Shown one piece after another: positions 135-63,640 of a stretch of 64,000 nt of DNA. Below the pieces are notes generated by a model, which worked only from the letters and a program-made list of their open reading frames with translations, was not told the origin of the DNA and did no database searches. The position numbers and the translations under genes are program-made. How positions within the stretch are numbered: position 1 is the first letter of the stretch; every line of letters starts with the position of its first letter. The DNA comes from Mustelus asterias (Eukaryota): NCBI RefSeq assembly GCF_964213995.1, contig NC_135804.1, forward strand, positions 113,522,001 to 113,586,000, read 5' to 3'.

Positions 135-375
135 AAAAGCAAATTACTGCAAATGCTGGAATCTAAAACCAAAAGAGAAAATGCTGGAAAATCTCAGCAG
201 GTCTGGCAGCATCTGGAAGGAGAGAAATGAGCTGATGTTGAGAGTCCAGATGACCCTTTGTCAAAGCTATGACAAAGCTTTGACAAAGGGTCATCTGGAC
301 TTGAAACATCAGCTCGTTTCTCTCCTTACAGATGCTGCCAATCCTGCTGAGATTTTCCAGCATTTTCTCTCTTTA
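135..375. mobile_element. Short non-coding foldback element with HHR motif (PLE-mobilised type)
   Basis: Inverted arms centred near 269-275; 13-bp TSD ggcttgcatgcat at 122-134 and 376-388. Confidence 0.8.
276..314 (+). ncRNA. Minimal hammerhead ribozyme motif with U3-A8 core
   Basis: AGCU-UUGACAA-A-GGGUC-AUCUG-GACUU-GAAA-CA-UC-AGCU. Confidence 0.55.
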
Positions 376-1129
376 GGCTTGCATGCATGTAGGTTTTGGT
401 TTAATTTCAAACTGTGGCTGCATCGTGATTAGAGAGCTTACAACGTGAAAACAAACAAGTTTTAAAGAAAGACTAGGCTGTTGCTTAGCAACCAAAGGCC
501 CCATAGGTTACAAAGAATTTTTGAGTTTAGTTTTAAGCTGGACCCAGTAGCATTTGGAGCGAGGTAGCTGACAAAGAAGCAGCTCTCACAGAAACGAGAA
601 GCAGTCCAATGGAGTAAGGGGAAGAAGGCAAGTCCCAGAAGCTAATGAACAGATAGTTTTAGAAACCAGTGAATGAAATAAAAGTCCCAAGAAGACCAAA
701 GTCAAAGGAACTAGAAATTGAACAAGATTCTGTTCAATACTGAAGTTAAAGGAAGGGGCAGAAAGAGACTCCCAGTTAAAGACAGAGCTAAAAGGTGCAG
801 ACCTAGAGACATTGGCTAGCGAGAAGATCGATATTGTAAGTAATTCTAAGGTTGGTGACACCTCAATACAGCCTGTGAAGCAGTACTGTCCTGTTGGTGT
901 GATGTGGCTCAGATGCTTGTGGCAAGCCAAGGCAAACAAATACTGAAAGGAGACACTGAAATCCTGGAAGTGGATCATGGTGAAGGCATTTGAGAGAAAC
1001 CATTGTTTGGGAGAAATTTCCAAGTTGTGTCCTTTTGAGAGTGAAGTTTGGAAACACCTGTGTAGAAGTAACAGTTTCAGTGAGACCAGTTGGCTTACAG
1101 TAAGATAAGCATCTTGGGAGGGTGTGGGT

Positions 1130-1172
1130 GCGCGCGCGGGGGGGGGGGGGGGGGGGGGTGGGTGGGGGGGGG
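1130..1172 (+). repeat. (GC)n plus long G-run, G-quadruplex-capable
   Basis: About 20 consecutive G followed by tgggtggggggggg. Confidence 0.8.
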
Positions 1173-1309
1173 CAGGAGAGGAGAGGAGGAGGATTTGATG
1201 AGAAGTGCATAGTACTTGTACTGGGTGGTATCTGCCACAAGTAGGAGGTGTCTGACAACACAGAAACATAGAAACTAGAAGCAGGAATAGGCCATTTGGC
1301 AGGGAGGTC

Positions 1310-5892: not shown

Positions 5893-6238
5893 TAGAATCA
5901 TAGAATCCCTACAGTGCAGAAGGAGGCCATTCAGCCCATCAAGTCTGCACTGCTCTCCAACAGAGCATCTTCACCCAGGGCCAACCCTGCTCTATGCCCA
6001 TAACCCCACGTATTTACCCTGTTAATCTCCTAAACTACACATCTTGGGACACTAAGTGGTAATTTAGCATGGCCAATCCACCTACCTGCACACCTTTAGA
6101 CTGTGGGAGGAAACCGGAGCCCCCAGAGGAAACTCACGCAGACATGGGGAGAACGTGCAAACTCCACACAGTCACCCAAGGCTGGAATTGAATCCAGGTC
6201 CCTGGCGCTGTGAGGCAGCAGTACCTGCCACAGTGCCA
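5893..6238 (-). mobile_element. HE1-type V-SINE, CR1-type tail
   Basis: tRNA-like head, V-domain, tail ...ccttctgcactgtagggattctatgattcta. Confidence 0.85.
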
Positions 6239-9390: not shown

Positions 9391-10066
9391 CTGTGTTTTT
9401 AAAATTACTCAAACAAGTGAATGAACTTCTGTCCGGATACCTTTTTTAAACTTATGGACGAGACCTATGATATTGAACCCAAGAGGGTACTGTAAGGCGT
9501 GAGTTTCAAAATGTTATTACCCCAAAACTTAATAACGCTAATATAATCTAGTTCTGTAAATCTACATAATGAAATATAAGTAAGCTGCAGCAATCTTTAT
9601 AAAATATCAGCTTTTCCCTAAACATAAAAATTATGCAACTCTCTTCAGAGCCAATTACCAAAGTTTAATTAATTTTGACACAGATAGGGTGAGACTTTAA
9701 CTCACTCAAAGCCCATACTCAAGCAGAGTGTTAAAATCAAGCCCCATGTTGTATAAATATCAGCACTGTTCACCCTAAGGAAAGGATTATGATTTTATAA
9801 CACAGAGGAAGTCGCCTATATTAAATTAATTCATAGAGATTTCTTCTTCAATACATTAACATTGGAGGTGCAAAAAAAATCATTTAAATCAGGAAAACAT
9901 GCTACATATGCTAACTATATACCATGTATGTGTATGCCTATTAGATAGATCATAGGATTAATTTTCCTCTTCCACCAAAATATGATGAATTCCTGCTGTA
10001 TGGACAAAGTACATGCTACGGTTACCATGACAAATACTTCCAAACCAACTAAATAATTCTATTACA

Positions 10067-10341
10067 GAAAAAAGAGATGCTATCAAAGTTTTTCATCTTG
10101 CACTCATCAGGATAGCTCACAAGAAATGACCAATAGTTATGGAGGAACAACTATTTATACTGCACAAGAAGACAGAGCTGATTGGTTGGCAAGTGGACTC
10201 TGATTGGTGGAGGCAATTCCATGGAAAATGCAGCCCGATTAAATTCAGACCAGGCAGGCCGACTCTGATTGGTTAAGGCATTGCTTTGATAACATATCAC
10301 TTTTTTCAAGCAATGCTCAAGTTTCTGTGCTAGCAAATGAC
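10067..10341 (-). mobile_element. Non-coding PLE-type terminal fragment with HHR
   Basis: 13-bp TSD taattctattaca at 10054-10066 and 10342-10354; internal ctgattgg repeats; HHR near one end. Confidence 0.7.
10079..10116 (-). ncRNA. Minimal hammerhead ribozyme motif
   Basis: GCUAUC-CUGAUGA-GU-GCAAG-AU-GAAA-AACU-UU-GAUAGC; perfect 6-bp stem I. Confidence 0.65.
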
Positions 10342-11498
10342 TAATTCTATTACAACAGATATACATTGGAACGCACTGCTGTGTGCTCAAAACTGCTAAT
10401 TGTCAAAAGGAAGAATGTCCCTTTTTTTCCCTCAGAAATTTTAATGCTCATCAAGCTGAGGAATGTTAGTGCAGGGGAATGGAACTCTTTGCTTTTCTGA
10501 CACTTAGCATAAAACACTCCTAGCCAGATGCAGTTAAAATCTCCCTCTATTCTATCCAGCAACATGCCTTAATCCCAAACTTAGAAGAGCATTCTGTAGT
10601 GCATTCATGCAGTATTCTTGCACTTCACACATCAGCAGTCCTGTGGCCTCACTGCATGAGATTGCTAATTAGTGCTGAATTAAGGACAGTTTTGTGCTGT
10701 GCAGCTACATTAAAACTGTCTAACCTTATTTCACATAGAATCTTTACAGCCAACAAAAGGGTCTTTTATCCTGTTCGTCTTGGCTGGATTTGAAGCCATG
10801 CCCCTGAGGTGAAAGGCAATCAATGTCATTTAATAGGAGTGACAAAAAAAATCAGCAGCTCTTTATATATGTATATGTTTATTAATCACATAAAACAGTT
10901 TTGTAACTTATTTAATTTTTACACTATTAGATCACTCCAATAATATAATAAAACAGGAAAATCCAGTGTTATAATAATAAATAATTGAAACAGGTTTTGA
11001 CACTTTTATTCTTTATAAACAGGCTGTACTGCTCTAAATGGTTTTAGATTGATTCCAGATTGACTAAAATGTAGCTTGCAGCATTTATTTTACTGTTGTG
11101 GGCTTAGAATTTAATTATTATTATTAATATCTGTGAAACCTAGGGTGTGATCTAAATTTTAAACCATATACATAATCTCAGTCTTACATTTAAAGAAGTA
11201 ATGATGTGGGATATAATTTTGTTAACCATCATGCCATTTCTCCGTATATTACTATGAATATCTCAAATTCCTGTGATTATCAGTTCACTGCCCAGTTAAA
11301 AAGGTGCCAAAAGATACCTTGTTCCAGCAGAAAAACTATCCAAATGTCAGAAGTAGTTTTATTCCAGTACCAACCACACAACTAAAACACCCTCTTCCCA
11401 CCCTCTCCTCTTAATTTTAACTTAATTTCTAATTAATGTAGCTTACTTGTGAGTTCCGTACACAGTTGATTCACCTCTTTTTCTTTGAAGATTCAATT

Positions 11499-11844
11499 CA
11501 TAGAATCATAGAAACCCTATAGTGCAGAAAGAGGCCATTTGGCCTATCGAGTCTGCACCGATCACAATCCCACCCAGGCCCTACCCCCATAACCCTACAT
11601 ATTTACCCACTAATCCCTCTAATCTATGCATCTCAGGACACTAAGGGGCAATTTTAGCACGGCCAATCAATCTAATGTGCACATCTTTGGACTGTGGGAG
11701 GAAACCGGAGCACCCGGAGAAAACCCACGCAGACACGAGGAGAATGTGCAAACTCCACACAGACAATGACCCAAGCCGGGAATCGAACCCAGGTCCCTGG
11801 AGCCATGAAGCAGCAGTGCTAACCACTATGCTACCGTGCCGTCC
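11499..11844 (-). mobile_element. HE1-type V-SINE, CR1-type tail
   Basis: Full-length copy with A/B-box head and (ttctatga) tail. Confidence 0.9.
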
Positions 11845-12110: not shown

Positions 12111-13700
12111 AGACCATAAGACATAGGAGCGGAAGTAAGGCCATTCGGCCCATCGAGTCCACTCCACCATTCAATCATGGTTGATTTCAACTCCATTTAC
12201 CCGCTCTCTCCCCATAGCCCTTAATTCCTCGAGAAATCAAGAATTTATCAATTTCTGTCTTGAAGACGCTCAACGTCTCGGCCTCCACAGCTCTCTGTGG
12301 CAATGAATTCCACAGACCTACCACTCTCTGGCTGAAGAAATTTCTCCTCATCTCTGTTCTAAAGTGACTCCCTTTTATTCTAAGGCTGTGCCCCCGCGTC
12401 CTAGTCTCCCCTGCTAATGGAAACAACTTCCCTACGTCCATCCTATCTAAGCCGTTCATTATCTTGTAAGTTTCTATTAGATCTCCCCTCAACCTCCTAA
12501 ACTCCAATGAATATAATCCCACGATCCTCAGACGTTCATCGTATGTCAGGCCTACCATTCCTGGGATCATCCGTGTGAATCTCCGCTGGACCCGCTCCAG
12601 TGCCAGTATGTCCTTCCTGAGGTGTGGGGCCCAAAATTGCTCACAGTACTCCAAATGGGGCCTAACCAGTGCTTTATAAAGCCTCAGAAGTACATCCCTG
12701 CTTTTGTATTCCAAGCCTCTTGAGATAAATGACAACATTACATTTGCTTTCTTAATTACGGACTCAACCTGCAAGTTTACCTTTAGAGAATCCTGGACTA
12801 GGACTCCCAAGTCCCTTTGCATTTTAGCATTATGAATTTTGTCACCGTTTAGAAAATAGTCCATGCCTCTATTCTTTTTTCCAAAGTGCAAGACCTCGCA
12901 CTTGCCCACGTTGAATTTCATCAGCCACTTCTTGGACCACTCTCCTAAACTGTCTAAATCTTTCTGCAGCCTCCCCACCTCCTCAATACTACCTGCCCCT
13001 CCACCTATCTTTGTATCATCGGCAAACTTGGCCAGAATGCCCCCAGTCCCGTCATCTAGATCGTTAATATATAAAGAGAACAGCTGTGGCCCCAACACTG
13101 AACCCTGCGGGACACCACTTGTCACCGGTTGCCATTCTGAGAAAGAACCTTTTATCCCAACTCTCTGCCTTCTGTCTGACAGCCAATCGTCAATCCATGT
13201 TAGTACCTTGCCTCGAATACCATGGGCCCTTATTTTACTCAGCAGTCTCCCGTGAGGCACCTTGTCAAAGGCCTTTTGGAAGTCAAGATAGATAACATCC
13301 ATTGGCTCTCTTTGGTCTAACCTATTTGTTATCTCTTCAAAGAACTCTAACAGGTTTGTCGGGCACGACCTCCCCTTACTAAATCCATGCTGACTTGTCC
13401 TAATCCGACCCTGCACTTCCAAGAATTTAGAAATCTCATCCTTAACGATGGATTCTAGAATTTTGCCAACAACTGAGGTTAGGCTAATTGGCCTATAATT
13501 TTCCATCTTTTTTCTTGTTCCCTTCTTGAACAGTGGGGTTACAACAGCGATTTTCCAATCCTCTGGGACTTTCCCTGACTCCAGTGACTTTTGAAAGATC
13601 ATAACTAACGCCTCCACTATTTCTTCAGCTATCTCCTTTAGAACTCTAGGATGTAGCCCATCTGGGCCCGGAGATTTATCAATTTTCAGACCTTTTAGTT
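12111..13700 (-). mobile_element. Young 5'-truncated CR1 (HER1-like) LINE with an uninterrupted RT frame (12187-13617)
   Basis: NYRPISLTS, YLDFQKAFD, GVPQGSVLGP, KFADD motifs; short-repeat 3' tail; frame runs to the truncation point. Confidence 0.95.
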
Positions 13701-14997
13701 GAGTTCATTCCCAATATTTACTCTTCATTGAAGAGTCATAGTCTGTTTACAGCAATTGGTTCCCAATTTGCTAAAATCTTATTTAATTACATTTACTATT
13801 TCACAAAATGCCATGTCACTGTGCAAGTCCATACAAAATAAACAAGTTACATATAAATTAAGTCCTGGGTACATTTTATGTTGGTGAGCCTTAGTAGGAA
13901 AATTAGTGGGTGCTTTGTATAGAAAAAAACAACAGCATAATCTGCTGCAATTTGCTAGCAAGATTCAAGGGTAATTAAGACGATCTTGCCTTGCCCAAAT
14001 GAACTGAAAGAAGCATGAGTAACAACCACTTACAAGTGTGGACTGAGCGGTATACAGTTAGAGATTTTAAAAACATCTTCAATTGCAAGAAGATGCATAA
14101 GTTCACTTACAGGATAAAATGGCTGACATCTTTTTTTGTGCCGACATTGATCCTTGGGCCTTATGTATGAAACTGGTGAGCCGTGGACACCTGCTGGGCC
14201 TCCCCAGGCACCACACTGGTGAGAGGCTGTGAATGTTTGGCTACTGCATTGCCAATAAGCAGGTTAAAAGAGAAGGGTATGTAAACGTGAGGGGGTCAAT
14301 CAAGAGGAAGTGATGGCCAGCATCAGCTGGCAACACATGATGCAGTTTCTGATGCTACATTCATACAATTTTTTAAAAAACCGCATCTTTTTTTTTGTGG
14401 CGGCCCCTTTAAGGATTGCTGGTTAGGCTGCAGGAACTTGCTACTTTCAGGGCAATTTAATTTCATACAGGGGGCCTCATGTACAAATGACAGCCTGTTT
14501 TTTTCTGCATTTGCAAAGAACCTAATGCCGTTTTCCAGTCAATTACAGCTTGCAAAGAGTGTGCCTATCCTACCATACCATATCAGAGGCTTAGACAACC
14601 ATTTAGCGCCTGGAAAATGTGGCATCCTCAAATTTCTGAGCCACTATATTTTTTACAGATTAAAATATAAAATACATAATTGTTAAAATAAAGGGCAGAT
14701 TTACACACCCATGTTTAGTTCCTTTGGATTTGAGGCCTCATATATCTTCTCATTCGTACATGTCATACCGATCAAGTCAATGTAAAAAATACCTTGCCCT
14801 ATGTGCGACCATTATTTGCATCAGGAAAGAGCAAAATGGATACATTAACCTTTTCAGTAGAAAACTGCTTAACATTTAATGCTGAAAGGAGTCACACTTT
14901 AATTCTTGAAATATACCAAAATGGTGTAACAGAACATAGCAATGATCTTAACTGTTGAACATTAATCATTTGATGGAGCTCTATGCACTTAGTCTAA

Positions 14998-15291
14998 AAC
15001 TTATTCATTTGTGTCACAAGTAGGCTTACATTAATACAGAAATTAAGTTACTGTGAAAATCCCCCAGTCACCACATTTTGACGCCTGTTCGGGTACACTG
15101 AGGGAGAATTTAGCATGGCCAATGCACCTAACCAGCACGTCTTTCAGATTGTGGGAGGAAACTGGAGCACTCGGAGGAATCCCACGCTGACACGGGGAGA
15201 ACGTGCAAACTCCACACAGTGACCCAAGTCGGGAATAGATTATGGGTCCCTGGGGTTGTGAGGTAGCAGTGCTAACCTCTGTGCCACCGTG
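14998..15291 (-). mobile_element. V-SINE with alternative (type B) tail
   Basis: HE1 head and core, but tail ...taatgtaagcctacttgtgac. Confidence 0.8.
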
Positions 15292-21287: not shown

Positions 21288-22658
21288 AACTCCTCCTGCT
21301 GTGCCCTTGAACTTTCTACCGACTTCAAGAGAAGCAGAATGGGTTGGACTACTTGAGAACAGATCAAGAGCAGGATTACCTGAGAAATGATACGTCAGCA
21401 AAGTTTGAAGTACTAATTTCTTGCGTGGCCAAGCAGTCCCTGCATTCAGCTAAAGACTCATCTTAATTTCCACCTTTAAATAAAATCAATGCTTCATAAT
21501 TCAATTAACCAATGAAAATCTGGAACAAACTGCTAGTGTCATTAATAATAATCATGGGCTAGATTTTATGCTCTCCTGCCAGCGGATCTGAAGATGCCAG
21601 GTAGGGGGAGCGGGTACCTGAAATTTTATCCAGGTGGGGTGCTGGGGAAGAGGTCAGGTGACATGCCTGACCTTGAGCCTATTGTGGCCTTTAAGTGGCC
21701 ATTTACTGGCCTCTGAAGGATCGCAACCTGCTGCCATCCTTGTTTTACCTATGGTGGGCGAAGGCCCATGCAGAGCAGGAAGATGGGCATGTTAAACTGT
21801 AGTGATAGGTGTCGAGTGGTGGGTGGGAATGTCCCACTGAGGGCTCCCTAGACCTATCCGAGGTATTCCCTTTTCCTCCCCTCCTGGCCAGATTATTACT
21901 GTTGAGGCTATGCTTATTATTCGGGAGCCTAAAGCCTCAAACTCTCTTAGCAGATCATTTAGAGTTCGGTGTTGTCCATTCCATAGAACCATAGAACCGT
22001 AGAAAATTACAGCTCAGAAACAGGCCTTTTGGCCCTTCTTGTCTATGCCGAACCATTTTATGCCTAGTCCCACTGACCTGCACTTGGACCATATCCCTCC
22101 ACACCCCTCTCATCCATGAACCCGTCCAAGTTTTTCTTAAATGTTAAAAGTGACCCCGCATTTACCACTTTATCCGGCAGCTCATTCCACACTCCCACCA
22201 CTCTCTGCGTGAAGAAGCCCCCCCTAATATTCCCTGTAAACTTTTCTTCTTTCACCCTTAACCCATGCCCTCTGGTTTTTTTCTCCCCTAGCCTCAGCGG
22301 AAAAAGCCTGCTTGCATTCACTCTATCTATACCCATCAAAATCTTATACACCTCTATCAAATCTCCCCTCAATCTTCTACGCTCCAGGGAATAAAGTCCC
22401 AACCTATTCAATCTCTCTCTGTAACTCAGCTTCTCAAGTCCCGGCAACATCCTTGTGAACCTTCTCTGCACTCTTTCAATCTTATTTACATCCTTCCTGT
22501 AACTAGGTGACCAAAACTGTACACAATACTCCAAATTCGGCCTCACCAATGCCTTATATAACCTTGATGTGGAGATGCCGGCGTTGGACTGGGGTAAACA
22601 CAGTAAGAAGTTTAACAACACCAGGTTAAAGTCCAACAGGTTTATTTGGTAGCAAAAG

Positions 22659-22704
22659 CCACACAAGCTTTCGGAGCTCTAAGCCCCTTCTTCAGGTGAG
22701 TGGG
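22659..22704 (-). ncRNA. Minimal type I hammerhead ribozyme motif
   Basis: CCACUCAC-CUGAAGA-A-GGGGCU-UAG-AGCUCC-GAAA-GC-UU-GUGUGG. Confidence 0.8.
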
Positions 22705-24091
22705 AATTCTGTTCACAAACAGAGCTTATAAAGACACAGACTCAATTTACATGAATAATGGTTGGAATGCGAATACTTACAACTAATCAAGTCTTTAAGA
22801 AACAAAACAATGTGAATGGAGAGAGCATCAAGACAGGCTAAAAAGATGTGTATTGTCTCCAGACAAGACAGCCAGTGAAACTCTGCAGGTCCACGCAACT
22901 GTGGGAGTTACAAATAGTGTGACATGAACCCAATATCCCGGTTGAGGCAGTCCTCGTGTGTGCGGAACTTGGCTATCAGTTTCTGCTCAGCGACTCTGCG
23001 CTGTCGTGTGTCGCAAAGGCCGCCTTGGAGAACGCTTACCCGAATATCAGAGGCCGAATGCCCGTGACCGCTGAAGTGCTCCCCAACAGGAAGAGAACAG
23101 TCTTGCCTGGTGATTGTCGAGCGGTGTTCATTCATCCGTTGTCGCAGCGTCTGCATAGTTTCCCCAATGTACCATGCCTCGGGACATCCTTTCTTGCAGC
23201 GTATCAGGTAGACAACGTTGGCCGAATTGCAAGAGTATGTACCGTGTACCTGGTGGATGGTGTTCTCACGTGAGATGATGGCATCTGTGTGATGACGGCA
23301 TCTCCTCCGGAGCCTTCAACATGTCATTGATGAAGACGAACATCTCGCCAAGAACATCCCCACACCCCCCTTCTTGCCTTCAAACAACCGCACAACCTCA
23401 AACAGACCATTGTCCGCAGCAAACTACCCAGCCTTCAGGAGAACAGTGACCATGACACCACACAACCCTGCCACAGCAACCTCTGCAAGACGTGCCGGAT
23501 CATCGACACAGATGCCATCATCTCACGTGAGAACACCATCCACCAGGTACACGGTACATACTCTTGCAATTCGGCCAACGTGGTCTACCTGGTACGCTGC
23601 AAGAAAGGATGTCCCGAGGCATGGTACATTGGGGAAACTATGCAGACGCTGCGACAACGGATGAATGAACACCGCTCGACAATCACCAGGCAAGACTGTT
23701 CTCTTCCTGTTGGGGAGCACTTCAGCGGTCACAGGCATTTGGCCTCTGATATTCGGGTAAGCGTTCTCCAAGGCGGCCTTCGCGACACACGACAGCGCAG
23801 AGTCGCTGAGCAGAAACTGATAGCCAAGTTCCGCACACACGAGGACGGCCTCAACCGGGATATTGGGTTCATGTCACACTATTTGTAACTCCCACTGATG
23901 CGTGGACCTGCAGAGTTTCACTGGCTGTCTTGTCTGGAGACAATACACATCTTTTTAGCCTGTCTTGATGCTCTCTCCATTCACATTGTTTTGTTTCTTA
24001 AAGACTTGATTAGTTGTAAGTATTCGCATTCCAACCATTATTCATGTAAATTGAGTCTGTGTCTTTATAAGCTCTGTTTGTGAACAGAATT

Positions 24092-24137
24092 CCCACTCAC
24101 CTGAAGAAGGGGCTTAGAGCTCCGAAAGCTTGTGTGG
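24092..24137 (+). ncRNA. Minimal type I hammerhead ribozyme motif
   Basis: Mirror copy of 22659-22704. Confidence 0.8.
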
Positions 24138-25464
24138 CTTTTGCTACCAAATAAACCTGTTGGACTTTAACCTGGTGTTGTTAAACTTCTTATTATATAA
24201 CCTTACCATAACACTCCAACTTTTATACTCGATACTCCGATTTATAAAGGCCAATGTACCAAAGGCACTCTTTACGACCCTATCCACCTGTGACGTCACT
24301 TTTAGGGAATTCTGTACCTGTATTCCCAGATCCCTCTGTTCAACTGCACTCTTCAGAGTCCTACCATTTACCCTGTACGTTCTTCTTTGGTTTGTCCCTC
24401 CAAAGTGCAATATCTCACACTTGTCCGCGTTAAACTCCATTTGCCATTTTTCAGCCCATTTTTCTAGTTGGTCCAAATCCCTCTGCAAGCTTTGAAAACC
24501 TTCCTCACTGTCCACTACACCTCCAATCTTTGTATCATCAGCAAACTTGCTGATCCAATTTACCACATTATCATCCAGATCATTGATATAGATGACAAAC
24601 AACAATGGACCCAGCACTGATCCCTGCGGCACACCACTAGTCACAGGCCTCCACTCAGAGAAGCAATCCTCCACAACCACTCTCTGGCTTCTTCCATTGC
24701 AGTGTCTTATCCAATTTACTACCTCCCCATGTATACCTAGCGACTGAACCTTCCTAACTAACCTCCCATGAGGGACCTTGTCAAAGGCCTTGCTGAAATC
24801 CAGGTAGACAACATCCACCGCCTTCCCTTCATCCACTTTCCTGGTAACCTCCTCGAAAAACTCTAATAGATTGGTCAAACATGACCTACCACGCACAAAG
24901 CCATGTTGACTCTCCCTAATAAGTCCCTGTCTATCCAAATATTTGTAGATCCTATCCCTTATCACACCTTCCAATAACTTGCCCACCACCGACGTCAAAC
25001 TTACTGGCCGATAATTTCCCGGATTTCTTTTGGAACCTTTTTTAAACGGAACAACATGAGCCACCCTCCAATCATCCGGCACCTCCCCCGTGAATACTGA
25101 CATTTTAAATATGTCTGCCAGGGCCCCTGCAAATTCAACACTAGCTTCCCTCAAGGTCCGTGGGAATACCCTGTCCGGTCCTGGGGATTTATCCACTCTG
25201 ATTTGCCTCAAGACAGCGAGCACCTCCTCCCCTTTAATCTGTAAAGCTTCCATGGCCTCCCTACCAGTTTGCCCTATTTCCGTAGATGGACCACAAGGGG
25301 GTTCTGCCCCTTTCAGTCCAAATTTTTCCTGTCTTTAATCCTGGGATTGGGCAGGCAAGATATAACACTGGAATGCCTAGTTGTGGCTGCAGGGTAGACT
25401 ATCCATCTCGGGGTCCATACAGTCCTCCATCACAACCATATTGCTTTTCACTCCTCCCACCTGA

Positions 25465-35578: not shown

Positions 35579-35739
35579 TGCTGAATAGCACATAACTCAA
35601 TGAATAATCTGCTGTAGATACTATAGAAGCTAGAAAATTGAGAAAAATATGCATCATTTACGAAAGTCTAAGAAAATTCTGGAAATATTCAGCAGGTCTG
35701 GCATGATGCATTCTCTGTGGAGAGAGAAGCAGAGTTAAC

Positions 35740-44131: not shown

Positions 44132-44258
44132 ATACACTGCAGATGCCAGAATCTGAAACAAAAGCAGAAAATGCTGGAAAATCTCAGCAGGTCTGGCAGC
44201 ATTTGTGGAGAGAGAATAGAGCTAACTTTTTGAGTCTGGATGACCCTTTGAAGGGTCT
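44132..44258 (-). mobile_element. Copy of the 135-375 family with a tiny foldback
   Basis: gaccctttgaagggtc at the end; flanks aacataaaca/aatataaaca. Confidence 0.65.
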
Positions 44259-44389: not shown

Positions 44390-44692
44390 TTTAAAGTTTA
44401 TTTATTAGTGTCATAAGTAGGCTTACGTTAACAGTGCAATGAACTTACTGTGAAAATCCTCTAGTCGTCACACTCCGGCACCTCTTCATGTATACGGAGG
44501 GAAAATTTAGCACGACCAATGCACCCAACCAGCACGTCTTTCGGGCTGTGGGAGGAAATTGGAGCACCCCAAGGAAACCCACGCAGACACGAGGAGAACA
44601 TTCAGACTCCCTACAGACAGTGACCTAAACTGGGAATCGAACCTGGGTCCCTGGATCTGAGGCAGCAGTGCTAACCACTGTGCTACCCTGCC
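44390..44692 (-). mobile_element. V-SINE with type B tail
   Basis: As 29258. Confidence 0.85.
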
Positions 44693-48370: not shown

Positions 48371-48394
48371 AGCAATAGCTAACTGCTGTATAGA

Positions 48395-48940
48395 AATATT
48401 GTTATATTATAGAAAGGATATATTATATTGTAGAAAGGATATTATTAAACTAGATCGAGTGCAGAAAAAATTTACCAGGATGCTACCGGGACTTGATGGT
48501 TTGAGTTATGAGAGGCTGGATAGACTGGGACTTTTTTCTCTGGATCGTAGGAGGCAGAGGGATGATCTTATAGAGGTCTATAAAATAATGAGGGGCATTG
48601 ATCAGCTAGATAGTCAGTATCTTTTCCCAAAAGTAGGGGAGTCTAAAACTAGAGGGCATAGGTTTAAGGTGAGAGGGGAGAGATACAAAAGTGTCCAGAT
48701 GGGCAATTTTTTCACACAGAGGATGGTGAGTGTCTGGAACAAGCTGCCAGAGGTAGTAGTAGAAGCCGGTACAATTTTGTCTGTTAGAAAGCATTTAGAC
48801 AGTTACATGGGTAAGATGGGTATAGAGGGATATGGGACAAACGCGGGCAATTGGGACGAGCTTAGTGGTTAAAAAAGGGCGGCATGGACAAGTTGGGCCG
48901 AAGGGCCTGATTCCATGCTGTAAACCTCTATGATTCTATG
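48395..48940 (+). mobile_element. CR1 3' fragment
   Basis: RVQKKFTRMLPGL...NFFTQRMVSVWNKLP and tail. Confidence 0.9.
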
Positions 48941-52370: not shown

Positions 52371-53006
52371 ATGGCAGCAAAAGAATTATGGCATTGATAG
52401 TCCAAAATTGTTCACACATTCCTCCAATTGGATCCTTAATGAGATCAAAACTGAATAAGAAAATGGGCAATATATGATACTGTTTGGATAATATTTGAGT
52501 ATCTATCTTAGTATAGAGTGGAAAGAGAGCAGTCGGGTTTGAAGCTCAAAACAAAGTGTATTATTTTAAAGACTTAAATGAACATGGATAACAGGCTTCC
52601 AAATTGAAAAAAGCTGTAAAAATGACAAGCTTGTTATACTGGTTTTCCGAGTATTGTTTCACATGATGTGTAATCACGAGGAGACACTGGCTCCTCACAA
52701 TATAATAGAGGGAGGAAGACTAAAAGAGCTTTTTAAAAATGATCAAATGGATAGGCTATTACTTCTTGTTGTATTCATTCATGGGATGCTGGCATCACTG
52801 ACAAAGTCATTATTTAATTTCCATCCCTAATTTCCCTTGAGGAGGTGGTTGTCAGCTGTCGTCTTGAATTATTGCAGTATGTGTAGTGAAGGTACAAGCA
52901 CTGTGCTGTTAGGTAGAGTTCCAGAAGTTTGCCTTGGGACAATAAAGGCAGCAAGAAATCTCACAACACCAGGTTAAAGTCCAACAGGTTTATTTGGTAG
53001 CACAAG

Positions 53007-53048
53007 CCACAAGCTTTCAGAGCATTGCTCCTTCATCAGGTGAGTGGG
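53007..53048 (-). ncRNA. Minimal hammerhead ribozyme motif
   Basis: CAC-CUGAUGA-A-GGAGC-AAU-GCUCU-GAAA-GC-UU-GUGG. Confidence 0.75.
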
Positions 53049-53344
53049 AGTTCTGTTCACAAACAGGGCATATAAAAACACAAACTCAATTTACAAGATA
53101 ATGATTGGAATGTGGGTCTTTACAGATAATCAAGTCTTAAAGGTACAGACAATGTGAGTGGAGAGAGGGTTAAGCACAGGTTAAAGAGATGTGTATTGTC
53201 TGCAGCCAGGACAGTTAGTGAGATTTTGCAAGCCCAAGCAAGATGAAGGAGCAGCGCTCTGAAAGCGTGTGGCTTGTGCTACCAAATAAACCTGTTGGAC
53301 TTTAACCTGGTGTTGAGAGACTTCTTACTGTGCATCTCCACATC

Positions 53345-55970
53345 ATGGCAAACTGCCGGCTCCAAGTGGAGAGGATCTCCAAGAAGATTGCGCATATCGA
53401 CACAGACATCAAGTTTCTACAAAGATGCAAGAAAGCAGACAAGATACCGAAAGGAATACAGATCACGAACCCACTCAGGTCAACCCATAACACAGACTAC
53501 GCTGTCGCACCTCTCACACTCCTCAACTACCTCATACACCAGTTCTACAGCGAACACCGCATCCTGGAAACCAAGATAGAGTTCTCAACTTGCGCTCAGG
53601 ACGCAGACCAGCTGTGAAACCCTGCCAAGCAGACGAGACAAAGGAACTACGCCATCTACATGCACATCAAGAACAGGAAACTTGAGAAACTCGGCATCAC
53701 CACCAGCAGCAACCAAGCCCCCCCCAGTACCAGAGTAGGAAACAGTACCACTGCAGGGAAGTCCATTGTTAATTTGTCGGACTACACACTTCAACCAGAT
53801 TAAATCGAAGTTCTCAGCTGAGGGCTCAATTTCTGCCCCACCACCAAAATAGACCCCATCAGTCTCGCAGCGGACAGAGGAATTCATCAGGCGCATGAGG
53901 CTGCGGGAGTTCTTCCACAAACTCCAAGGAGGCCAACAGCGAACACAATGAGACAGCCAATGAACCGGAACAGCCAACAGAGATCCACGGTGCAGCAAAC
54001 AACGAGGAAAGAGTTGAATTGGACTCCTCCGGAAGGCCGCTGCCCTCGACTCGACATGCATGCCCAAGCCGCTAGAAGGTGCATCAATGCCAGACTCATC
54101 AGCCGTACTCAAGACAGCCCTGAATGTCACCCAAGCACAACGCAACGCCATTCGCGCTCTCAAGACCAACCGCAACATTATCAAACCAGCAGACAGAGGG
54201 GCCACCTCATACTGAACAGAATGGATTACTGCAAAGAAGTGTACCGACAATTGAACAATGAGGAACACTACAGACAGTTACCCACAGATCTGACCAAAGA
54301 ACACATCCGTCAACTCAACAGACTGATCAAGACCTTTGATCCGGACCTTCAGAGGACCCTCCATGCTCTCATCCCACGTACTCCCCGCGTTGGAGATCTC
54401 TACTGCCTCCCGAAGATACACAAGGCCAAAACACCCGGCCGTCCCATTGTATCGGGCAATGGGACCCTGTGCGAGAACCTCTCCGGCTATGTCGAGGGCA
54501 TCCTGAAACCCATTGTACAAAGAACCCCCAGCTTTTGTCGCGACACTCCGGACTTCCTACAGAAACTCAGCACACATGGAGCAGTTGAACCAGGAGCACT
54601 CCTCGTCACAATGGATGTCTCGGCACTCTACGCCAGCATCCCCCACGACGATGGCATTGCCGCAACTGCCTCAGTACTCAACACCGACAACTGCCAATCT
54701 CCAGATGCAATTTTACAACTCATCCGCTTCATTCTGGACCACAATGTCTTCACCTTCAACAACCAGTTCTTCATCTAGACACACGGGACAGCCATGGGGA
54801 CCAAATTCGCACCTCAATATGCCAACATCTTCATGCACAGGTTCGAAAACAACCTCTTCACCGCACAGGACCTTCAACCAATGCTATACATTAGATACAT
54901 CGATGACATTTTCTTCCTTTGGACTCATGTCGAACAATCACTGAAACAACTATATGATGACATCAACAAGTTCCATCCCACCATCAGACTCACCATGGAC
55001 TACTCTCCGGAATCGGTTGCATTCTTGGACACACGCATCTCCATTAAGGACAGTCACCTCAGCACCTCACTGTACTGCAAGCCCACGGATAACCTCATGA
55101 TGCTCCACTTCTCCAGCTTCCACCCTAAACACGTTAAAGAAGCCATCCCCTACGGACAAGCCCTCCGTATACACAGGATCTGCTCAGATGAGGAGGATCG
55201 CAACAGACAACTCCAGATGCTGAAGGATGCCCTCATAAGAACAGGATATGGAGCTCAACTCATCGATTGACAGTTCAGACGTGCCACAGCAAAAAACCAC
55301 ACCGACCTCCTAAGAAGACAAACACGGGACACGGCGGACAGAGTACCCTTCGTAGTCCAGTACTTCCCCGGAGTGGAGAAGCTACGACATCTTCTCCGAA
55401 GCCTTCAACATGTCATCGATGAAGATGAACATCTTGCCAAGGCCATTCCCACACCCCCCTTTTTGCTTTCAAACAACCGCACAACCTCAAACAGACCATT
55501 GTCCGCAGCAAACTACCCAGCCTTCAGGAGAACAGTGACCACGACACTACACAACCCTGCCACAGTAACCTCTGCAAGACATGCCAGATCATTGACATGG
55601 ATACCATCATCTCACGTGAGAACACCATCCACCAGGTACACGGTACATACTCTTGCAACTCGGTCAACGTTGTCTACCTGATACGCTGCAGGAAAGGATG
55701 TCCTAAGGCATGGTACATTGGGGAGACCATGCAGACGCTACGACAACGGATGAATGAACACCGCTTGACAATCACCAGGCAGGAATGTTCTCTTCCTGTT
55801 GGGGAACACTTCAGCAGTCACGGCCATTCAGCCTCTGATCGTCGGGTAAACGTTCTCCAAGGCGGCCTTCACGACAACGCAGAATCGCTGAGCAAAAACT
55901 GATAACCAAGTTCCGCACACATGATGTTGGCCTCAACTGGGATCTTGGGTTCATGTCACATTATTTGTAA
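53345..55970 (+). pseudogene. Penelope RT plus GIY-YIG endonuclease ORF, disrupted
   Basis: LPKIHK, PGRPIVS, TMDVSALY, GTAMG, RYIDD, Cys-rich linker CHSNLCKTC, VVYLIRC..WYIGET; several stops and frameshifts. Confidence 0.92.
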
Positions 55971-56173
55971 CCCCCACAACTTGCCTGGACTTGCATAATC
56001 TCACTAACTGTCCTGGCTGGAGACAATACACATCTCTTCGACCTGTGCTTAACCCTCTCTCCACTCTCATTGTCTGTACCTTTAAGACTTGATTACCTGT
56101 AAAGACTCGTATTCCAACCATTATCTTGTAAATTGAGTTTGTGTCTTTATATGCCCTGTTTGTGAACTGAAAT

Positions 56174-56214
56174 CCCACTCACCTGATGAAGGAGCAGTGC
56201 TCTGAAAGCTTGTA
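56174..56214 (+). ncRNA. Minimal hammerhead ribozyme motif (stem I weakened)
   Basis: CAC-CUGAUGA-A-GGAGC-AGU-GCUCU-GAAA-GC-UU-GUA. Confidence 0.65.
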
Positions 56215-59200
56215 CTGCCAAATAAACCTGTTGGACTTTAACCTGGTGTTGTGAGACTTCTTACTGTGTTTACCCCAGTCCAACGCTGGCATCTCCACAT
56301 CATGATAATAAAGGAACAGCAATATGTTCCCAAGTCAAAATTGTTGTCGATTTGGAGGGTAACCAGCTAGTGCCCGGCGTTCTCATGCACCTGCTGCCCT
56401 TGTCCTTCTAGGTTGCAGAGTTCATGGGTTTAGGATGTACTATGGAAGGAATCTTGGCAAGTTGTTGCTGTGTTTCTGGTAAATAGTACAAACTGCACCA
56501 TGGTGCACAGAGTAAATGCAAAAGATGGTGGATGGGGTGCTGATCAAATGATTGCTTTGCCCTGGATGGCATTGGGTTTTCTCAGTAATTGGGGATGCAC
56601 TCATCCACTCAAGTGGACAATATTCCATCATACCCTTCTCGTGTGCTATGAAGGATTGTGGAAAAGCACTGGGGACATAGAATGCGGATCGCTTGTGCCA
56701 AAATCCCAGACTCTGATCTGCTCTTGAGGTCACAATACCTATATAGCTAGTCTGGAAAAGTTTCTGGTTAATGGTGACACCCTCTCAGAGTGGGGGATTT
56801 GATTATAGCAATGTTGTTGGATATCCAGGAGGGTGATGACACTCCCTCTTGTTGGAATGGCTATTGCCTGGTAAGTGATACATAATTTGTGCCACACATC
56901 AGCTCTTGCCAAGTGTGCATACATTACTGCAATGCATCATTACCCAATATATTTGTCAGCTCGAAAGAACTATCAGCGAAATCAGAAGGGGACAGCAACA
57001 AGTGGAACAAATCTAAATGAAAGAGTCCAAACTGCCCAGGGTAAGATGTAAAAGTACATCTGACCTCTGAAGTTTGATACAGTGGAAATCAAACTGGCAC
57101 GAAAGGCAGGCACTGTTGATATCACTGAAAAAAAAATTCAGATGCAATACAGGATAATAATAGGAATATAGTATTCATTAGCCTAAAACAGACCTTGCCT
57201 ACAATTTTACTTGACTTGCACAAACTTACAAATGCTGGTTAAATTCGCTGTGCCTTTTGTGTTCTTTTTAATAGGCAAAATAAGATTTCACTAAAATGTC
57301 CAACTATCAACTTATTCCATAAAGGTTTCTTACTGTATTGAACTGTTAATTTTCCCAATTCATATTATTTACTATCCACCTATTTCAGAGATGCCGAAAC
57401 TCCATGTTGTGCAGGTTTTCTACATTAAAGGGTAAACAAAGTGTAAACTAATTTTACAAAATTTTGCAACTTATTTTAAAACATGTGTATTTTGAAGTTA
57501 TTTCATATTTTCCCATCCTTTAACTCTGAAGAATAGTCTACTTGTTGGCCAACAGAACAGATACTCCTGGATCCCCTCTACTCAAATCAAGCTGCAAGAT
57601 CAGTCTGAAATTAATTACCTTCTGATCTTTTCCCTATTCTTGTGGGAAAAACGTTTTTAAAAAGTACTTCAAGATAGATGACACCGACAAGCCTGCATTT
57701 ATTGCCCATCCCGAGTTGTTCTGAGAAGGTAGAACTGGAACCATTATAGTCCTTAGGCACACAGTGTCACTACAATAATATTAGACAGGGTATTCAGGAT
57801 TGATCATTAAGCAAAGGTTCTATATGTGGAAGTTAGGATGATGTGCTATTCAATGAGACTCCCGAGATCTTTCCTGCTTCTGCACCCACCTCTAATATCA
57901 CAGTTCATTGGAGTTCATCATGTAAAACTGCATCAATTTACTGTGCAGTTTAATATATTATTGTAGCAACAAATTGCTGCATCAAGATAAAAGCGACCAA
58001 CAACGTTGGACAGGGAAATATGTCTAAAGGGTTAACTTTTCTCGAGAACTGGAGAAGGAAACAGCCTCTCTCCATGCCACAATGTTCTATGATTCCAAGT
58101 GCAGAGTCTACCACATCCTCCTCAATATAAGGTTAAACAGTATCATTGTGTACAGACACATTTCCAAGTCGGGGCTGGTGTGGAGATAAAAAGTTCAAAT
58201 AATTTGTAGCACAACAGTTACAATTATTACTGATTCTTCTATTTAATCACCTGCTATTTTCCTACAAAAAAGCAAGCAGGCAAGCAGTCTTGCCATCAAC
58301 AGTTTGATCATGGTATAAATTCTCACGTATTCCCAAGTGTGCATGTATGCATAACATGGCTAAAATACAAGATACAATATTTAACCACAATTGCTTTCAA
58401 AGACATCAAGACTTCTCATGACAAGTTTCAATCAGTTCACTTTTGTATTATGTTACCCTTCACCACTAAAAGTATCCATACATATTGCAGAGATTTCCAA
58501 GAAACATACCCAGGGTGAGATAAATGTCCATGAAACATAATTATCGGCATCAGCCACAAGAAACAAAAAACCTCACCAGACTTGTGAATGGTTAAAGTGA
58601 AACGGAGTACATAAATGAACGTAATGCTGTTTATCGTTTTAAAGATTGCACAAGAGGAATTAAGATCCATGTGATACAAGATATGTATATACAGTATGAC
58701 AGACTAATTGTATTATACATTTGAAACTTGCTATCAAATGTTAAAAATAGGATTTCTGAGAATCCGCAGTATTTGGTTTTTGTATCAAAAATGTCATGCA
58801 GTATTGCAGCTCTGAAGTACTTAAAACCATCAAAGGCAAATTTTAACTGCATCATCAAACTGATGAAGCATTCCAGTGATAAATTAGCTTCCCCCAGTTT
58901 CACTCCACCACCACCGCTCCCACCCCCCAAGCTTCAATGACCGTTATAGTGCAGGCATGGAAAATTCCAAACACTATAGCACATTAAATCGTTTTGGCAG
59001 ATATGCTGATTCGCCAAATGAACCTTTCAAAAACAGGTTCTAGAAAGCCTACTTAGCAACCACATGCAGTCTCTTATAGGCAACAGCCTAAATAATAGAT
59101 AAAAATTGCTTAACAGACTTGTATGACAACAGCTTGTCTTCTATTTTCAAGGAGATGTTTATTTTAAATAGATTAAACAGTTCTGGTAAAACACACATGA

Positions 59201-59523: not shown

Positions 59524-60734
59524 CTTTAGCAGGGAAAGGGAAAGAACAACGTGGCAGGAATATTTTGCAAAAATTAAAAAGGACTGGCACAAAATTCGGC
59601 TTTAGGAATACTTTTGGAAACTCAAACCTTACATAAATAGTTGATCAGAAAAATAAATAATTCTCTCTACTCAGAATTGAATCTGGCATGTGATAATTTT
59701 CCAGGATCTGAATCTGACTGAATGTAATGTGAATCGGTTAGTCAATGTCTGAGATTAGATTCAAAATGTCCTAAATATCTCTGACACAAACATCAGACTC
59801 CATCACAAAAATCCACCATGAAACTTTGAGGTTAGGATTCTTATTTTGCGTATTAAAGTGCATAAATTGATGGGGAAAAAATAATCCTTTTATTTCTGTT
59901 TAAATTTTCCCTTCTTTGTTTTGTCCCATAGCTATTTGAAAATTTTCCACCTCATCATAACTATGTGCACATACCCCCACACTCAGAATCAAGCACTGTA
60001 TTTTCCTGGTGCTTTCTACCTTGTTGCCATCGTGGGCTCAACAAGACGTAACTCCACAGCAGCAAGATTAAACTAAAACTGTTATGATGAGTTTCTCTCT
60101 TTTGCAAAAAAATGTAAGTGCGGGATGATGTAGGAAAACCTCTCAAGCATTCTTAACACCGTGATTATTTTTATGGATAAATGTAACGATTTTTGTTCCA
60201 GATATATGATTTTATGTGCTTATTATATTACATGTTACCTCCATCTTTATACATTCGGCCAATAGTAGTGCAAATACATTATGAACAATTTGACTGATCC
60301 TTTTTCATGCACTAATCTGATTGCAGCCTTCTTTTAAAAACAGGATTTTTTGCTGGTTACTTGTTCCTCATTGATACCTCCTGCATCACTTTGCTTTATG
60401 TAAAGTGAACTGTCATTGACATCCAAACTTGTAACATTTCTGCAAACTGGACTCCAAAATATACTGACACTTTAGCAGAAAGAGGGAAAAAAGTTCCTTG
60501 GACTGTAATTCAGTATCTGTTCCAAAACTGTTGGATTGCAGTATGGCTTTCTTCACTGCATACTTTATCACCTTATTAAAGGACAATTGAGAGAAAACCT
60601 TAATGAAACAAGGTAACTAATCCTAGATGATAACTCAAAGTAATCAAATCGATTATCAAGAGAAAATGTAAGAATTAATAGTATGGCAATAGCCCAATAA
60701 ATAGTAATCAACTGGATTTGGATGGAAATTATCC

Positions 60735-61330
60735 TATATAAAACAAAGAAAATTACAGCACAGGAACAGGCCCTTCGGTCCTCCAAGCCTGCACCGACCA
60801 TGCTGCCCGACTTAACTAAAACCCTCTACCCTTCCGGGGACTATATCCCTCTATTCCCATCCTATTCATGTACTTGTCAAGACGCCCCTTAGAAGTCACT
60901 ACCGTATCTGTTTCCAATACCTCCCCCAGCAATGAGTTCCAGGCACCTGCAACTCTGTAAAAAATCTGCCTCGTACATCTCCTTTAAACCTATGCCCCTA
61001 GTAATTGACTCTTCCACCTTGGGAAAAAGCTTCTGACTATCCACTCTGTCCATGCCTCTCATAATCTTGTGGGCTTCTATCAGGTCTCCCCTTAACCTCC
61101 GTTGCTCCAGTGAGAACAAATTAAGTTTCTCCAACCTCTCCTCATAGCTAATGCCCTCCATACCAGGTAACATCTTGGTAAATCTTTTCTGTACCCTCTC
61201 CAAAGCCTCCACATCCTTCTGGTAGTGTGGCGACCAGAATTGAACACTATATTATATTCCAAGTGCGGCCTAACTCAGGTTCTATAAAGCTGCAACATGA
61301 CTTGCCAATTTTTAAACTCAATGCCCCGGC
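60735..61330 (-). mobile_element. CR1 3' fragment
   Basis: ALERVQKRFTKMLPG...RLRGDLIE. Confidence 0.9.
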
Positions 61331-63038
61331 ATTGTGTTCAAAATGGCAAATATTCTTGAGTTTTTGAAGAAAGTTGCATCTCAAGTGGTGTTCCTTGGGA
61401 TCCAACTAAGTTCTTCAGGAAAGCCTATTTTTAAGCTCAAAATTTACAGTAAATAACGTGATCAGATAAGAAGTTGGCTCAGGGGTAGGAAGTAATAGTT
61501 AAGTGTTTGAGGAATTATGTTACAAACTGCTGTTTCAAACACTAGTGTTTCCTACTTCTTTAACTGGGATTTTTAAAAAAATGATCAGGTGTTACTAAAC
61601 TAGCAGGGACAGAGAGTCTTGTTGAGCAGGGCTGGAAACTTCTAAATAAGAAATCAGTCAAATGGGCAAAATGACAATAGATGAAATTTGATACTGTCAA
61701 GTGCACCTGGAAGAGAAAATGGATGACTGAAATCCGGATGATCAAGAATGAATGCTTAACATAAATATTGATCTGAAACAGCAAAATAAATAGCATCTAA
61801 AGAGTCATTGGGAGTCATGTCTATACCATGTGGCTTTCTGGTCAGAATACCTTTAGCATTGTGTCCAGTTATAATCACTGAGTAAAAGAAGTAATTCAAT
61901 CCTTTGGTCAATCACAAGACTAGTCCTGAGCATTTCCCTAACAGGAGACTGGATAAACTTGACCTTTAAAACCATGAAAGGTGAATGAAAGAAGTGAAGG
62001 GTCTACAGAGAACCAATTTAGTAAATGTAAATCCAGAATATTACCTCAAGCTATCACAACTGTTACAGTAGGACAAGATGGCACAGGTATAAACTAACAA
62101 AAAAATTTCTTTCCACAGAGTGACGAAAGTACGGAGTCAATTTTCACATAGGGGAATGGAGGTAAATACCCTGAAAAAAAAAGATTTGGATGCACGAATA
62201 GAGGACAACAAGACACTTCCGCTAGGTGAGCCTTCTGCATCTGTATGCGCCTTGAAGTAGCCTGGGGATATGTGGAAAAGATTTACGTGAAAGCGTCATA
62301 CACAGTACTGAAGATGTATACATGATAAGTATCTTCTGGCAAACATTTCCATACACCTGTTATTCAAAATGTACCCTCCCATATGTGGCGCAGAAAATGT
62401 TGCAACCATTTGCTATTCAGCAGAAAATGAAAGTTATGATAGTATTTCAAACAGGAACAAATATTTCAACATTATGACATGAAATACATTGGAACATTGT
62501 TCAAGAATAAAGATGTTGGGGGGGATTGAGGGGTTTTGATAGAGCAACTAAGAAAAAGGATTTGGAACCAGAGGGGACAGATTTAGAAAAATTAGCAAAA
62601 GAAAAACCTGGTGAAAAAGGGATATTTATTTTAAACATGAGTTATGATTTGGAATGGACTGCCTGAAAGTGTGGCAGAAGTAGATTCAATAGTAACTTTC
62701 AAAATGGATTTGGATATATTCCTGGAAAGGAAATATTTACAAGACTATGGAGAAAGAGCAGAGAAACGGAAAGAATTGGACAGCTTTTTCAAAGAGCAGG
62801 TACAGGCAGAACAGGGCAAATTATTTGATGATGAAAGGTTAAATCGAAGAAGTTTACATTTAGATAGTGCTGGTCGTGACCTCAAGATGTCCCAAAATGA
62901 TTTCCAGCTAAGTATTTTAGAAGCACAGTCATTGTGTAGGAAGCACAGCAGCCCATTTTGCATGCAGTGAAGTTCCCACATGCAACATGATGATGACCAA
63001 ATCATCTGTTTAATGATGTTGGCTGAGGGATAAATATT

Positions 63039-63640
63039 GTAAGAAGTTTAACAACACCAGGTTAAAGTCCAACAGGTTTATTTGGTAGCAAAAGCCACAC
63101 AAGCTTTCGGAGCTGCAAGCCCCTTCTTCAGGTGAGTGGGAATTCTGTTCACAAACAGAGCATATAAAGACACAACCTCAATTTACACGAATAATGGTTG
63201 GAATGCGAATACTTACAACTAATCAAGTCTTTAAGAAACAAAACAATGTGAGTGGAGAGAGCATCAAGACAGGCTAAAAAGATGTGTATTGTCTCCAGAC
63301 AAGACAGCCAGTGAAACTCTGTGGGGGTTACAAATAGTGTGCCATGAACCCAATATCCCGGTTGAGGCCGTCCTCGTGTGTGCGGAACTTGGCTATCAGT
63401 TTCTGCTCAGCGACTCTGCGCCGTCGTGTGTCGCGAAGGCCGCCTTGGAGAACGCTTACCCGAATATCAGAGGCCGAATGCCCGTGACCGCTGAAGTGCT
63501 CCCCAACAGGAAGAGAACAGTCTTGCCTGGTGATTGTCGAGCGGTGTTCATTCATCCGTTGTCGCAGCGTCTGCATAGTTTCCCCAATGTACCATGCCTC
63601 GGGACATCCTTTCTTGCAGCGTATCAGGTAGACAACGTTG
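63039..63640 (-). mobile_element. Penelope 3' fragment (GIY-YIG plus pLTR) inserted in a Deu-SINE
   Basis: Nearly identical to 22603-23220; followed by an unrelated GC-rich repeat running to the window end. Confidence 0.92.
63095..63140 (-). ncRNA. Minimal type I hammerhead ribozyme motif
   Basis: CCACUCAC-CUGAAGA-A-GGGGCU-UGC-AGCUCC-GAAA-GC-UU-GUGUGG. Confidence 0.8.

What the first reader, a model, noticed from the sequence alone, without database searches (positions are those of the whole stretch)
135..63640. Shared insertion signature links three HHR-bearing families to Penelope machinery
Seen: five HHR-family insertions have 10-13-bp TSDs (135-375: 13; 10067-10341: 13; 22566-24192: 12; 44132-44258: 10 with one mismatch; 52949-56303: 11 with one mismatch). 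Four of them include an inverted terminal copy, ranging from about 7 bp to 687 bp. Only the 52949 element encodes RT. Known: PLE pLTRs carry minimal HHRs and often form inverted structures. Inference: autonomous PLEs plus short ribozyme-bearing passengers use a staggered GIY-YIG cut, forming a PLE counterpart to the SINE/LINE system in sharks.
Basis: partly seen in the sequence, partly recalled or inferred. Interest (0 to 1): 0.7.

Follow-up and report, generated by a model that had tools for sequence, protein, structure and literature searches.

The report
Three Penelope families, no shared passengers
The short ribozyme-bearing inserts are end pieces of three different Penelope-type jumping genes, each family encoding its own enzyme elsewhere in the genome, so they are likely insertion by-products rather than passengers of one shared machine; this is mostly a known pattern.

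Summary
The five insertions are real, and four have firm 11-13 bp target-site duplications (TSDs); the one at 44132 is weak. All three hammerhead families (A: 135, 44132; B: 10067; C: 22566, 52949) run elsewhere in the genome into their own RT + GIY-YIG reading frame. A and C are about 35% identical in the RT stretch compared. A and C also choose different targets: TG-N16/17-CA lies at 30 of 43 C sites and 0 of 30 A sites. Short and long copies interleave on trees, so short ones are no separate lineage. The shared signature (inverted end, 25-40 nt tail on one arm, TSD of about 10 bp) is published for Penelope-like elements (PLEs). So is the SINE/LINE analogy, for retrozymes. One point not found in my paper searches: 5' ends of short arms pile up 21-45 nt after a TATA-like box (C 20 of 35, A 20 of 27; replicated 14 of 20). 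They are likely run-off copies from the parent RNA's start. Earlier notes of this scan reached the same readings on other DNA.

The parts
122..134 (+). TSD, left copy (13 bp; right copy 376-388)
135..269 (-). Family A arm with tail: from +30 after the family's TATA box to the tail end; minimal hammerhead at about 230-268, GAAA changed in this arm
276..373 (+). Family A inverted arm, from +31, ending 38 nt short of the tail end; hammerhead with U3-A8 core at about 276-314
10054..10066 (+). TSD, left copy (13 bp; right copy 10342-10354)
10067..10284 (-). Family B tail-less arm, from -147; TATA-like box at 10153-10159, hammerhead at 10079-10116
10283..10341 (+). Family B short inverted arm that carries the tail (+70 to +126)
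22554..22565 (+). TSD, left copy (12 bp; right copy 24193-24204), inside the RT frame of another retrotransposon (CR1-like, name from recall); uninterrupted paralogues hold one copy
22566..23285 (-). Family C arm with tail (-554 to end); GIY-YIG part at 22908-23315, hammerhead core from 22695
23295..24192 (+). Family C tail-less arm (-770 to 40 nt short of the end); GIY-YIG at 23334-23888, hammerhead core from 24101; 98.8% identical to the other arm over 687 nt
44132..44258 (-). Older family A-like copy (86% to the family majority), cut at about +39 inside the hammerhead core; 7-bp fold-back; TSD doubtful
52938..52948 (+). TSD, left copy (11 bp, one mismatch; right copy 56304-56314)
52949..53242 (-). 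Family C inverted tail-less arm (-167 to 37 nt short of the end), hammerhead core from 53039
53242..53346 (+). Family C 5' direct module, from +38 (core lacks its first bases) through the tail into the start of the frame
53345..55970 (+). Family C RT + GIY-YIG reading frame, broken by stops and frameshifts
55971..56303 (+). Family C 3' region: TATA-like box at 56148, hammerhead at 56180-56214, tail to 56303
63039..63640 (-). Sixth copy, family C, tail-less arm; no partner arm found up to 4 kb beyond the window end

Best explanation
The five inserts are 5'-shortened copies of three separate Penelope-like retrotransposon families, each with its own RT + GIY-YIG frame in this genome, and each was likely laid down by its own family's enzyme. 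Shown: the coding link for all three families, real TSDs, one arm ending at the tail and the inverted arm 25-40 nt short of it, family-specific targets, and a pile-up of 5' ends 21-45 nt after a TATA-like box in A and C. Inferred: the enzyme cuts both target strands about 10-16 bp apart and primes cDNA from both ends at the two internal start sites known from the anole PLE. The two cDNAs are then joined head to head, often over short matches. The commonest very short arms likely arise when copying starts at the start site near the 5' end of the parent RNA and runs off that end after about 125-135 nt (about 0.55 for this last step).
For: A: loci found with the 135 element continue through about 520 nt of 3' sequence into GIY-YIG and RT (L091, L092). 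24 of 30 loci found with the A protein (query locus included) carry the A end downstream in the same sense. L359 holds a 732-aa frame with RVT_1 and a weak GIY-YIG match, 35% identical to C over 162 aa. B: shared sequence runs about 1.4 kb from the hammerhead into RT (tblastn E 1.5e-6 with the A protein, 8e-13 with a homologue) and a YVDD motif plus a GIY-YIG-like motif. TSDs: C 35 of 48, and 25 of 26 with a terminal inverted arm; A 19 of 56, and 19 of 36 among young copies; null 0.5-2.5%. Empty sites: 8 of 55 cases had paralogues, and all 8 hold one copy. Target motif TG-N16/17-CA: C 23 of 31 and A 0 of 17, random 6%; in new loci C 7 of 12 and A 0 of 13; pooled p = 1.4e-10. Trees: label 'short' needs 11 changes against 10.9 in shuffles (C, 33 rows) and 7 against 6.5 (A, 31 rows). 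5' peak: C 20 of 35 against 9 of 69 in flanking bins, p = 5e-6; A 20 of 27 against 4 of 41, p = 6e-8; independent C copies 14 of 20 against 9 of 36, p = 0.002. Long C copies stop there less often on the second pass, 3 of 16, p = 0.015. In vitro precedent: both strands cut and extended, two start sites that define the tail, and a need for RNA downstream of the start site (PMC11167929).
Against: Older A-like copies such as 44132 (18 of 27 tile copies are under 88% to the majority) were not traced to a frame of their own. All 8 empty-site cases are family C. B gives few TSDs (1 of 34; 2 of 27) and no clear 5' peak (4 of 25 in the peak bin, 4 of 29 in the next bin downstream), so its target and start are untested. 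The trees rest on about 115-120 columns with few supported branches. No cap-derived G: 2 of 32 in A, and 4 of 6 in C with p = 0.10 (that set includes query-biased loci). In A the peak sits on a 4-bp palindrome that inflates +31 at inverted joints, and on a possible splice acceptor. No transcription start was measured.
Confidence: 0.85

Rival explanations
1. One reading: short ribozyme-bearing passengers with their own master copies are moved in trans by one autonomous PLE, like SINEs by LINEs.
For: Similar TSD lengths (median 13 in A, 12 in C) and the same tail architecture. The 5' peak gives many copies a near-fixed length. Trans-mobilisation by PLEs is reported (PMC3846280, passages) and so are putative non-autonomous PLEs (PMC8557442, passages). 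Older A-like subfamilies were not traced.
Against: A and B have their own frames. A and C targets differ. Short and long copies are mixed in both C subfamilies. The 3' 600 nt of the families share nothing beyond 12 nt at the TATA box of A and B. Joints differ from copy to copy. Short copies lack the TATA box.
Confidence: 0.08
2. Same three autonomous families, but the 5' peak comes from stalling or joining at the ribozyme (structure, bound protein, palindromic matches) or from a splice acceptor, not from the RNA's start.
For: The peak overlaps helix I and the core. In A, 20 of 32 arms that begin at +31 have A before it, many at fold-back joints. In A a pyrimidine tract ends in AG at +31/32. 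In D. virilis an intron ends at helix I (PMC4209133). No cap G was found.
Against: A stall at a hairpin should leave ends on its 3' side, not beyond its 5' side (inference). Long copies pass the same spot more often. C has no palindrome there. A TATA-like box lies 30 nt upstream in A and C, and B has three CCAAT boxes before its TATA box.
Confidence: 0.3
3. The short fold-backs are MITE-like DNA transposons or non-LTR retrozymes.
For: Short size, inverted arms, type I hammerheads.
Against: Arms are unequal and vary from tens to over 1000 nt. TSD lengths vary from 9 to 16 bp. The window's copies are not head-to-tail hammerhead repeats.
Confidence: 0.03

Closest known systems
EN+ PLE insertions with inverted pLTR, one-sided tail and TSD (Adineta Pen2a and Pen2; PMC3846280, passages; general scheme in PMC8557442, passages)
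   Same: Inverted 5'-truncated copy, 30-40 nt tail on one arm only, 8-10 bp TSDs, strong 5' truncation.
   Different: TSDs here are longer (median 12-13), and three families are counted side by side with different targets.
Neptune/Nematis-type PLEs (A and C) and Penelope/Poseidon-type PLEs (B, tentative), by the linker rule in PMC8557442 (passages)
   Same: A and C have a CX4CxxC linker before GIY-YIG. None was seen in the decayed B translations.
   Different: No tree with named reference elements was built. C prefers a spaced palindrome, not a microsatellite.
Minimal hammerheads of metazoan PLEs (PMC4209133, parts 1-2 of 4)
   Same: Short helix I, palindromic loop 3, extra base before helix II in A and C, the U3-A8 core variant (A: 98 of 113), opposite-strand pairs 100-700 bp apart, most motifs single and ascribed to truncated PLEs.
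   Different: Nothing of substance; cleavage was not tested here.
Anole Poseidon element PAc in vitro (PMC11167929, parts 1-2 of 4)
   Same: Two internal start sites that define the tail, both strands cut and extended, uncut RNA as the main template.
   Different: The parts read do not link this to a genomic pile-up of 5' ends at a promoter or to a palindromic target.
Non-LTR retrozymes (PMC7229834, passages; bioRxiv 10.64898/2026.07.22.740005, parts 1-3 of 5)
   Same: Type I hammerhead, PLE origin; the preprint already states the SINE/LINE analogy.
   Different: Retrozymes are defined as head-to-tail repeats; these are single or inverted end pieces that continue into PLE coding sequence.

Membership tests
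EN+ Penelope-like elements | One frame with RT followed by GIY-YIG endonuclease | tested here: met
   C; A; B: (decayed pieces)
EN+ Penelope-like elements | pLTR with minimal hammerhead | tested here: met
   B helix I pair A-T/G-C covaries weakly, p = 0.011
EN+ Penelope-like elements | Inverted truncated copy and 30-40 nt tail on one arm | tested here: met
   3' ends fall in two groups, 0-6 and about 27-44 nt from the end; B about 24-28 nt
EN+ Penelope-like elements | RT groups with the PLE clades on a tree | not tested
   no named reference set at hand; 1030 homologues, mostly unnamed
Neptune/Nematis type (A, C) | CX2-5CxxC linker between RT and EN | tested here: met
   read from translations; rule
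SINE-like non-autonomous passengers | No coding parent with the same body | tested here: not met
SINE-like non-autonomous passengers | Own lineage from short master copies | tested here: not met
   (short alignments, young A and C only)
SINE-like non-autonomous passengers | Same target choice as the partner's enzyme | tested here: not met
   A 0 of 30 against C 30 of 43; B not testable
Non-LTR retrozymes | Head-to-tail repeats with a hammerhead in each unit | tested here: not met
   window copies are single or inverted
Non-LTR retrozymes | Circular RNA and self-cleavage | not testable with these tools
   no raw RNA reads listed
MITEs / DNA transposons | Fixed terminal inverted repeats and fixed short TSD | tested here: not met

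The most novel reading that the evidence does not exclude
The stubs record the PLE cycle. A one-unit RNA holds a complete RT start site only near its 5' end, so it mostly yields 125-135 nt run-off copies, while full-length copies need tandem or circular RNA. A paired enzyme cuts a family-specific spaced palindrome (TG-N16/17-CA for C) and copies from both cut ends at once.
Probability: 0.45. Interest if true: 0.55.

Novelty: new member of a known kind. Interest (0 to 1): 0.27.

Why it matters
The SINE/LINE-like system proposed is not there, and the signature is a known PLE trait, so the finding as written is ordinary. What remains useful is a natural comparison inside one genome. Three enzymes share an insertion geometry, but two of them differ in target. 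The many stubs give countable footprints (two start sites, stagger, symmetric target, 5' pile-up) for a transposition cycle that is still only partly worked out.

Tried and rejected
Rfam scan: no hammerhead family matched; three weak miRNA-like matches come from the 135 hairpin. Single-strand folds of six hammerhead stretches: five were not beyond shuffles, as expected for minimal motifs; the sixth (44215-44258) folds by its 7-bp fold-back. A genome search with the last 88 nt of C returned nothing because its words are too common, so C statistics come from tiles. No RNA holder was listed. Orthologous empty sites: contigs of four runs laid on the 135 locus showed no usable joint, because the flanks are repeats. 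Cap-G test: not supported. An apparent A-rich symmetric motif for A did not replicate. The B helix count was one base out of register and was redone. In one search the window's B copy was left out of the B set and scored apart. In one search the second-pass set has three values read by eye, and three repeated values were dropped. A planned replication on new tiles was not run; copies lying by chance in loci already held were used instead. Paper searches for the run-off and twin-priming readings: one search gave 0 papers and one search gave 2, neither on PLE mechanism by listing. The library lacks most subscription papers and Repbase, and the supplements of the 2026 preprint could not be seen.
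Full report
Setting. The window is G000:C4:113522001-113586000 of a 3.68-Gb genome. I call the families A (135-375, 44132-44258), B (10067-10341) and C (22566-24192, 52949-56303, 63039-63640). Positions marked + or - count from the first T of each family's TATA-like box.

Observation. TSDs are exact at 135 (13 bp), 10067 (13 bp) and 22566 (12 bp), and 11 bp with one mismatch at 52949. At 44132 only 7 bp are exact, below my cut-off. Four insertions have a firm inverted arm. In each of them one arm ends at the family's extreme 3' end and the other stops 25-40 nt short. In B it is the short arm that carries the tail. The 44132 copy has a 7-bp fold-back at its cut 5' end and lacks the start of the hammerhead core. 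52949 holds RT and GIY-YIG but is broken, and 22566 holds GIY-YIG twice.

What A and B are. Loci found with the 135 element share one fixed end and vary at the other. The longer ones run through about 520 nt of non-coding sequence into a GIY-YIG domain and RT on the hammerhead's strand. A search with that protein gave 26,630 first-look candidates, of which 150 were scored. 24 of the 30 loci fetched have the A end downstream. One locus holds a 732-aa frame, 35% identical to C over 162 aa. B is older (mean 82% to its majority, against 87% for A and 92% for C). Walking from it reached GIY-YIG-like and RT motifs 0.3-1.4 kb upstream of the hammerhead. The 3' 600 nt of the three families share nothing but 12 nt at the TATA box of A and B. 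By the linker rule of PMC8557442 (passages), A and C are Neptune/Nematis-type and B is probably Penelope/Poseidon-type; no reference tree was built.

TSDs and empty sites. I used five 200-kb tiles, the window with 20 kb of flank, and loci from end-only queries. TSDs scoring 8 or more were found in 35 of 48 C, 19 of 56 A and 1 of 34 B insertions, against 0.5-2.5% in swapped flanks. Further loci, at a score of 9 or more, gave A 13 of 38, B 2 of 27 and C 12 of 30. Lengths run from 9 to 16, median 13 in A and 12 in C (p = 0.015; lengths include chance matches). Of 55 cases, 8 lay in repeats with uninterrupted paralogues, and in all 8, 22566 among them, the empty site holds one copy.

Targets. Prompted by an earlier scan note, I tested a spaced palindrome. 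TG-N16/17-CA is centred on 23 of 31 C sites, 0 of 17 A sites and 6% of random sites. In new loci it was at 7 of 12 C, 0 of 13 A and 0 of 2 B sites. In the window a slightly looser form (spacer 15-18) is present at 22566 and 52949 and absent at 135, 10067 and 44132. One shared endonuclease is thus unlikely.

Lineage. On trees of the last 110-120 nt, short and long copies are mixed. Both well-supported C subfamilies hold both kinds (11 short and 5 long; 8 short and 9 long), and label changes equal the shuffled mean in C and A. Copies under 84% identity and those of middle length were left out. Resolution is low, so small short-only clusters are not excluded.

5' ends. Of arms that reach +45, 20 of 35 (C, tiles) and 20 of 27 (A, end-only query) stop between +21 and +45, against 9 of 69 and 4 of 41 in flanking bins. 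C copies lying by chance in other loci gave 14 of 20 against 9 of 36. Copies that include the start of the C frame stop there in 3 of 16 cases and otherwise end anywhere from -1330 to +148. B shows no significant peak in 29 loci, though it has three CCAAT boxes before its TATA box. A smaller group of ends lies at +58 to +69, near the predicted cleavage bond; I did not test it. A cap-derived G was not found.

Mechanism. PMC11167929 (parts 1-2 of 4) shows that a PLE protein cuts and extends both strands, starts RT at two internal sites that define the tail, needs RNA downstream of them, and does not need ribozyme cleavage. I infer a staggered double cut, cDNA from both ends started at the two sites, and head-to-head joining. 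The arms of 22566 are 98.8% alike but 95.3% alike to the sister copy at 63039, which fits one template source or later conversion. Run-off from the RNA's 5' end is my reading of the peak; it is inferred, with stalling or splicing as rivals.

Against the literature. Inverted pLTR, tail and 8-10 bp TSDs, and mobilisation in trans, are in PMC3846280 (passages). Minimal hammerheads, the U3-A8 variant and opposite-strand pairs from truncated PLEs are in PMC4209133 (parts 1-2). The SINE/LINE analogy for PLE-derived retrozymes is in bioRxiv 10.64898/2026.07.22.740005 (parts 1-3), and larger TSDs of animal retrozymes are in PMC7229834 (passages). D. virilis Penelope has a TATA-less internal promoter (PMC2377424, passages), so a TATA-driven start is not a given. 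Searches listed no paper that, by title or the passages read, reports the 5' pile-up or the palindromic target. Earlier unchecked notes of this scan reach the same readings; they are not independent support.

Verdict. Real insertions of a known class; the passenger system is not supported. New members of a known kind, interest 0.27.

Noticed in passing
window 30643-30723, 35671-35729, 40544-40591, 41036-41115: Four more old family A-like fragments (about 78% to the majority) that the finding does not list.
   Followed up: no
window 34622-34709: Old B-like end with a hammerhead-like core on the + strand (71%).
   Followed up: no
L330-L332 (G000:C4:69472103-69478254): Three family C starts spaced 2991 nt apart: a head-to-tail array of whole units.
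   Followed up: partly
G000:C15:80.4-84.4 Mb: About 30 closely similar family A protein matches cluster here, which suggests an amplified larger segment.
   Followed up: no
family A and C arms, +58 to +69: Second, smaller group of 5' ends near the predicted hammerhead cleavage bond.
   Followed up: partly
window 20246-21067, 22064-25334, 12187-13704, 48291-48872, 60889-61251: Several copies of a LINE-type RT (CR1-like, name from recall); the 22566 insertion splits one of them.
   Followed up: partly
L237 and tile T10 near 97,200: A and C elements directly abutting or nested in each other.
   Followed up: no
window 5896-6238, 11504-11841, 14995-15294, 29264-29548, 32883-33067, 40051-40334, 44392-44693: Abundant short interspersed repeat family of about 300 nt, unrelated to the PLEs.
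   Followed up: no
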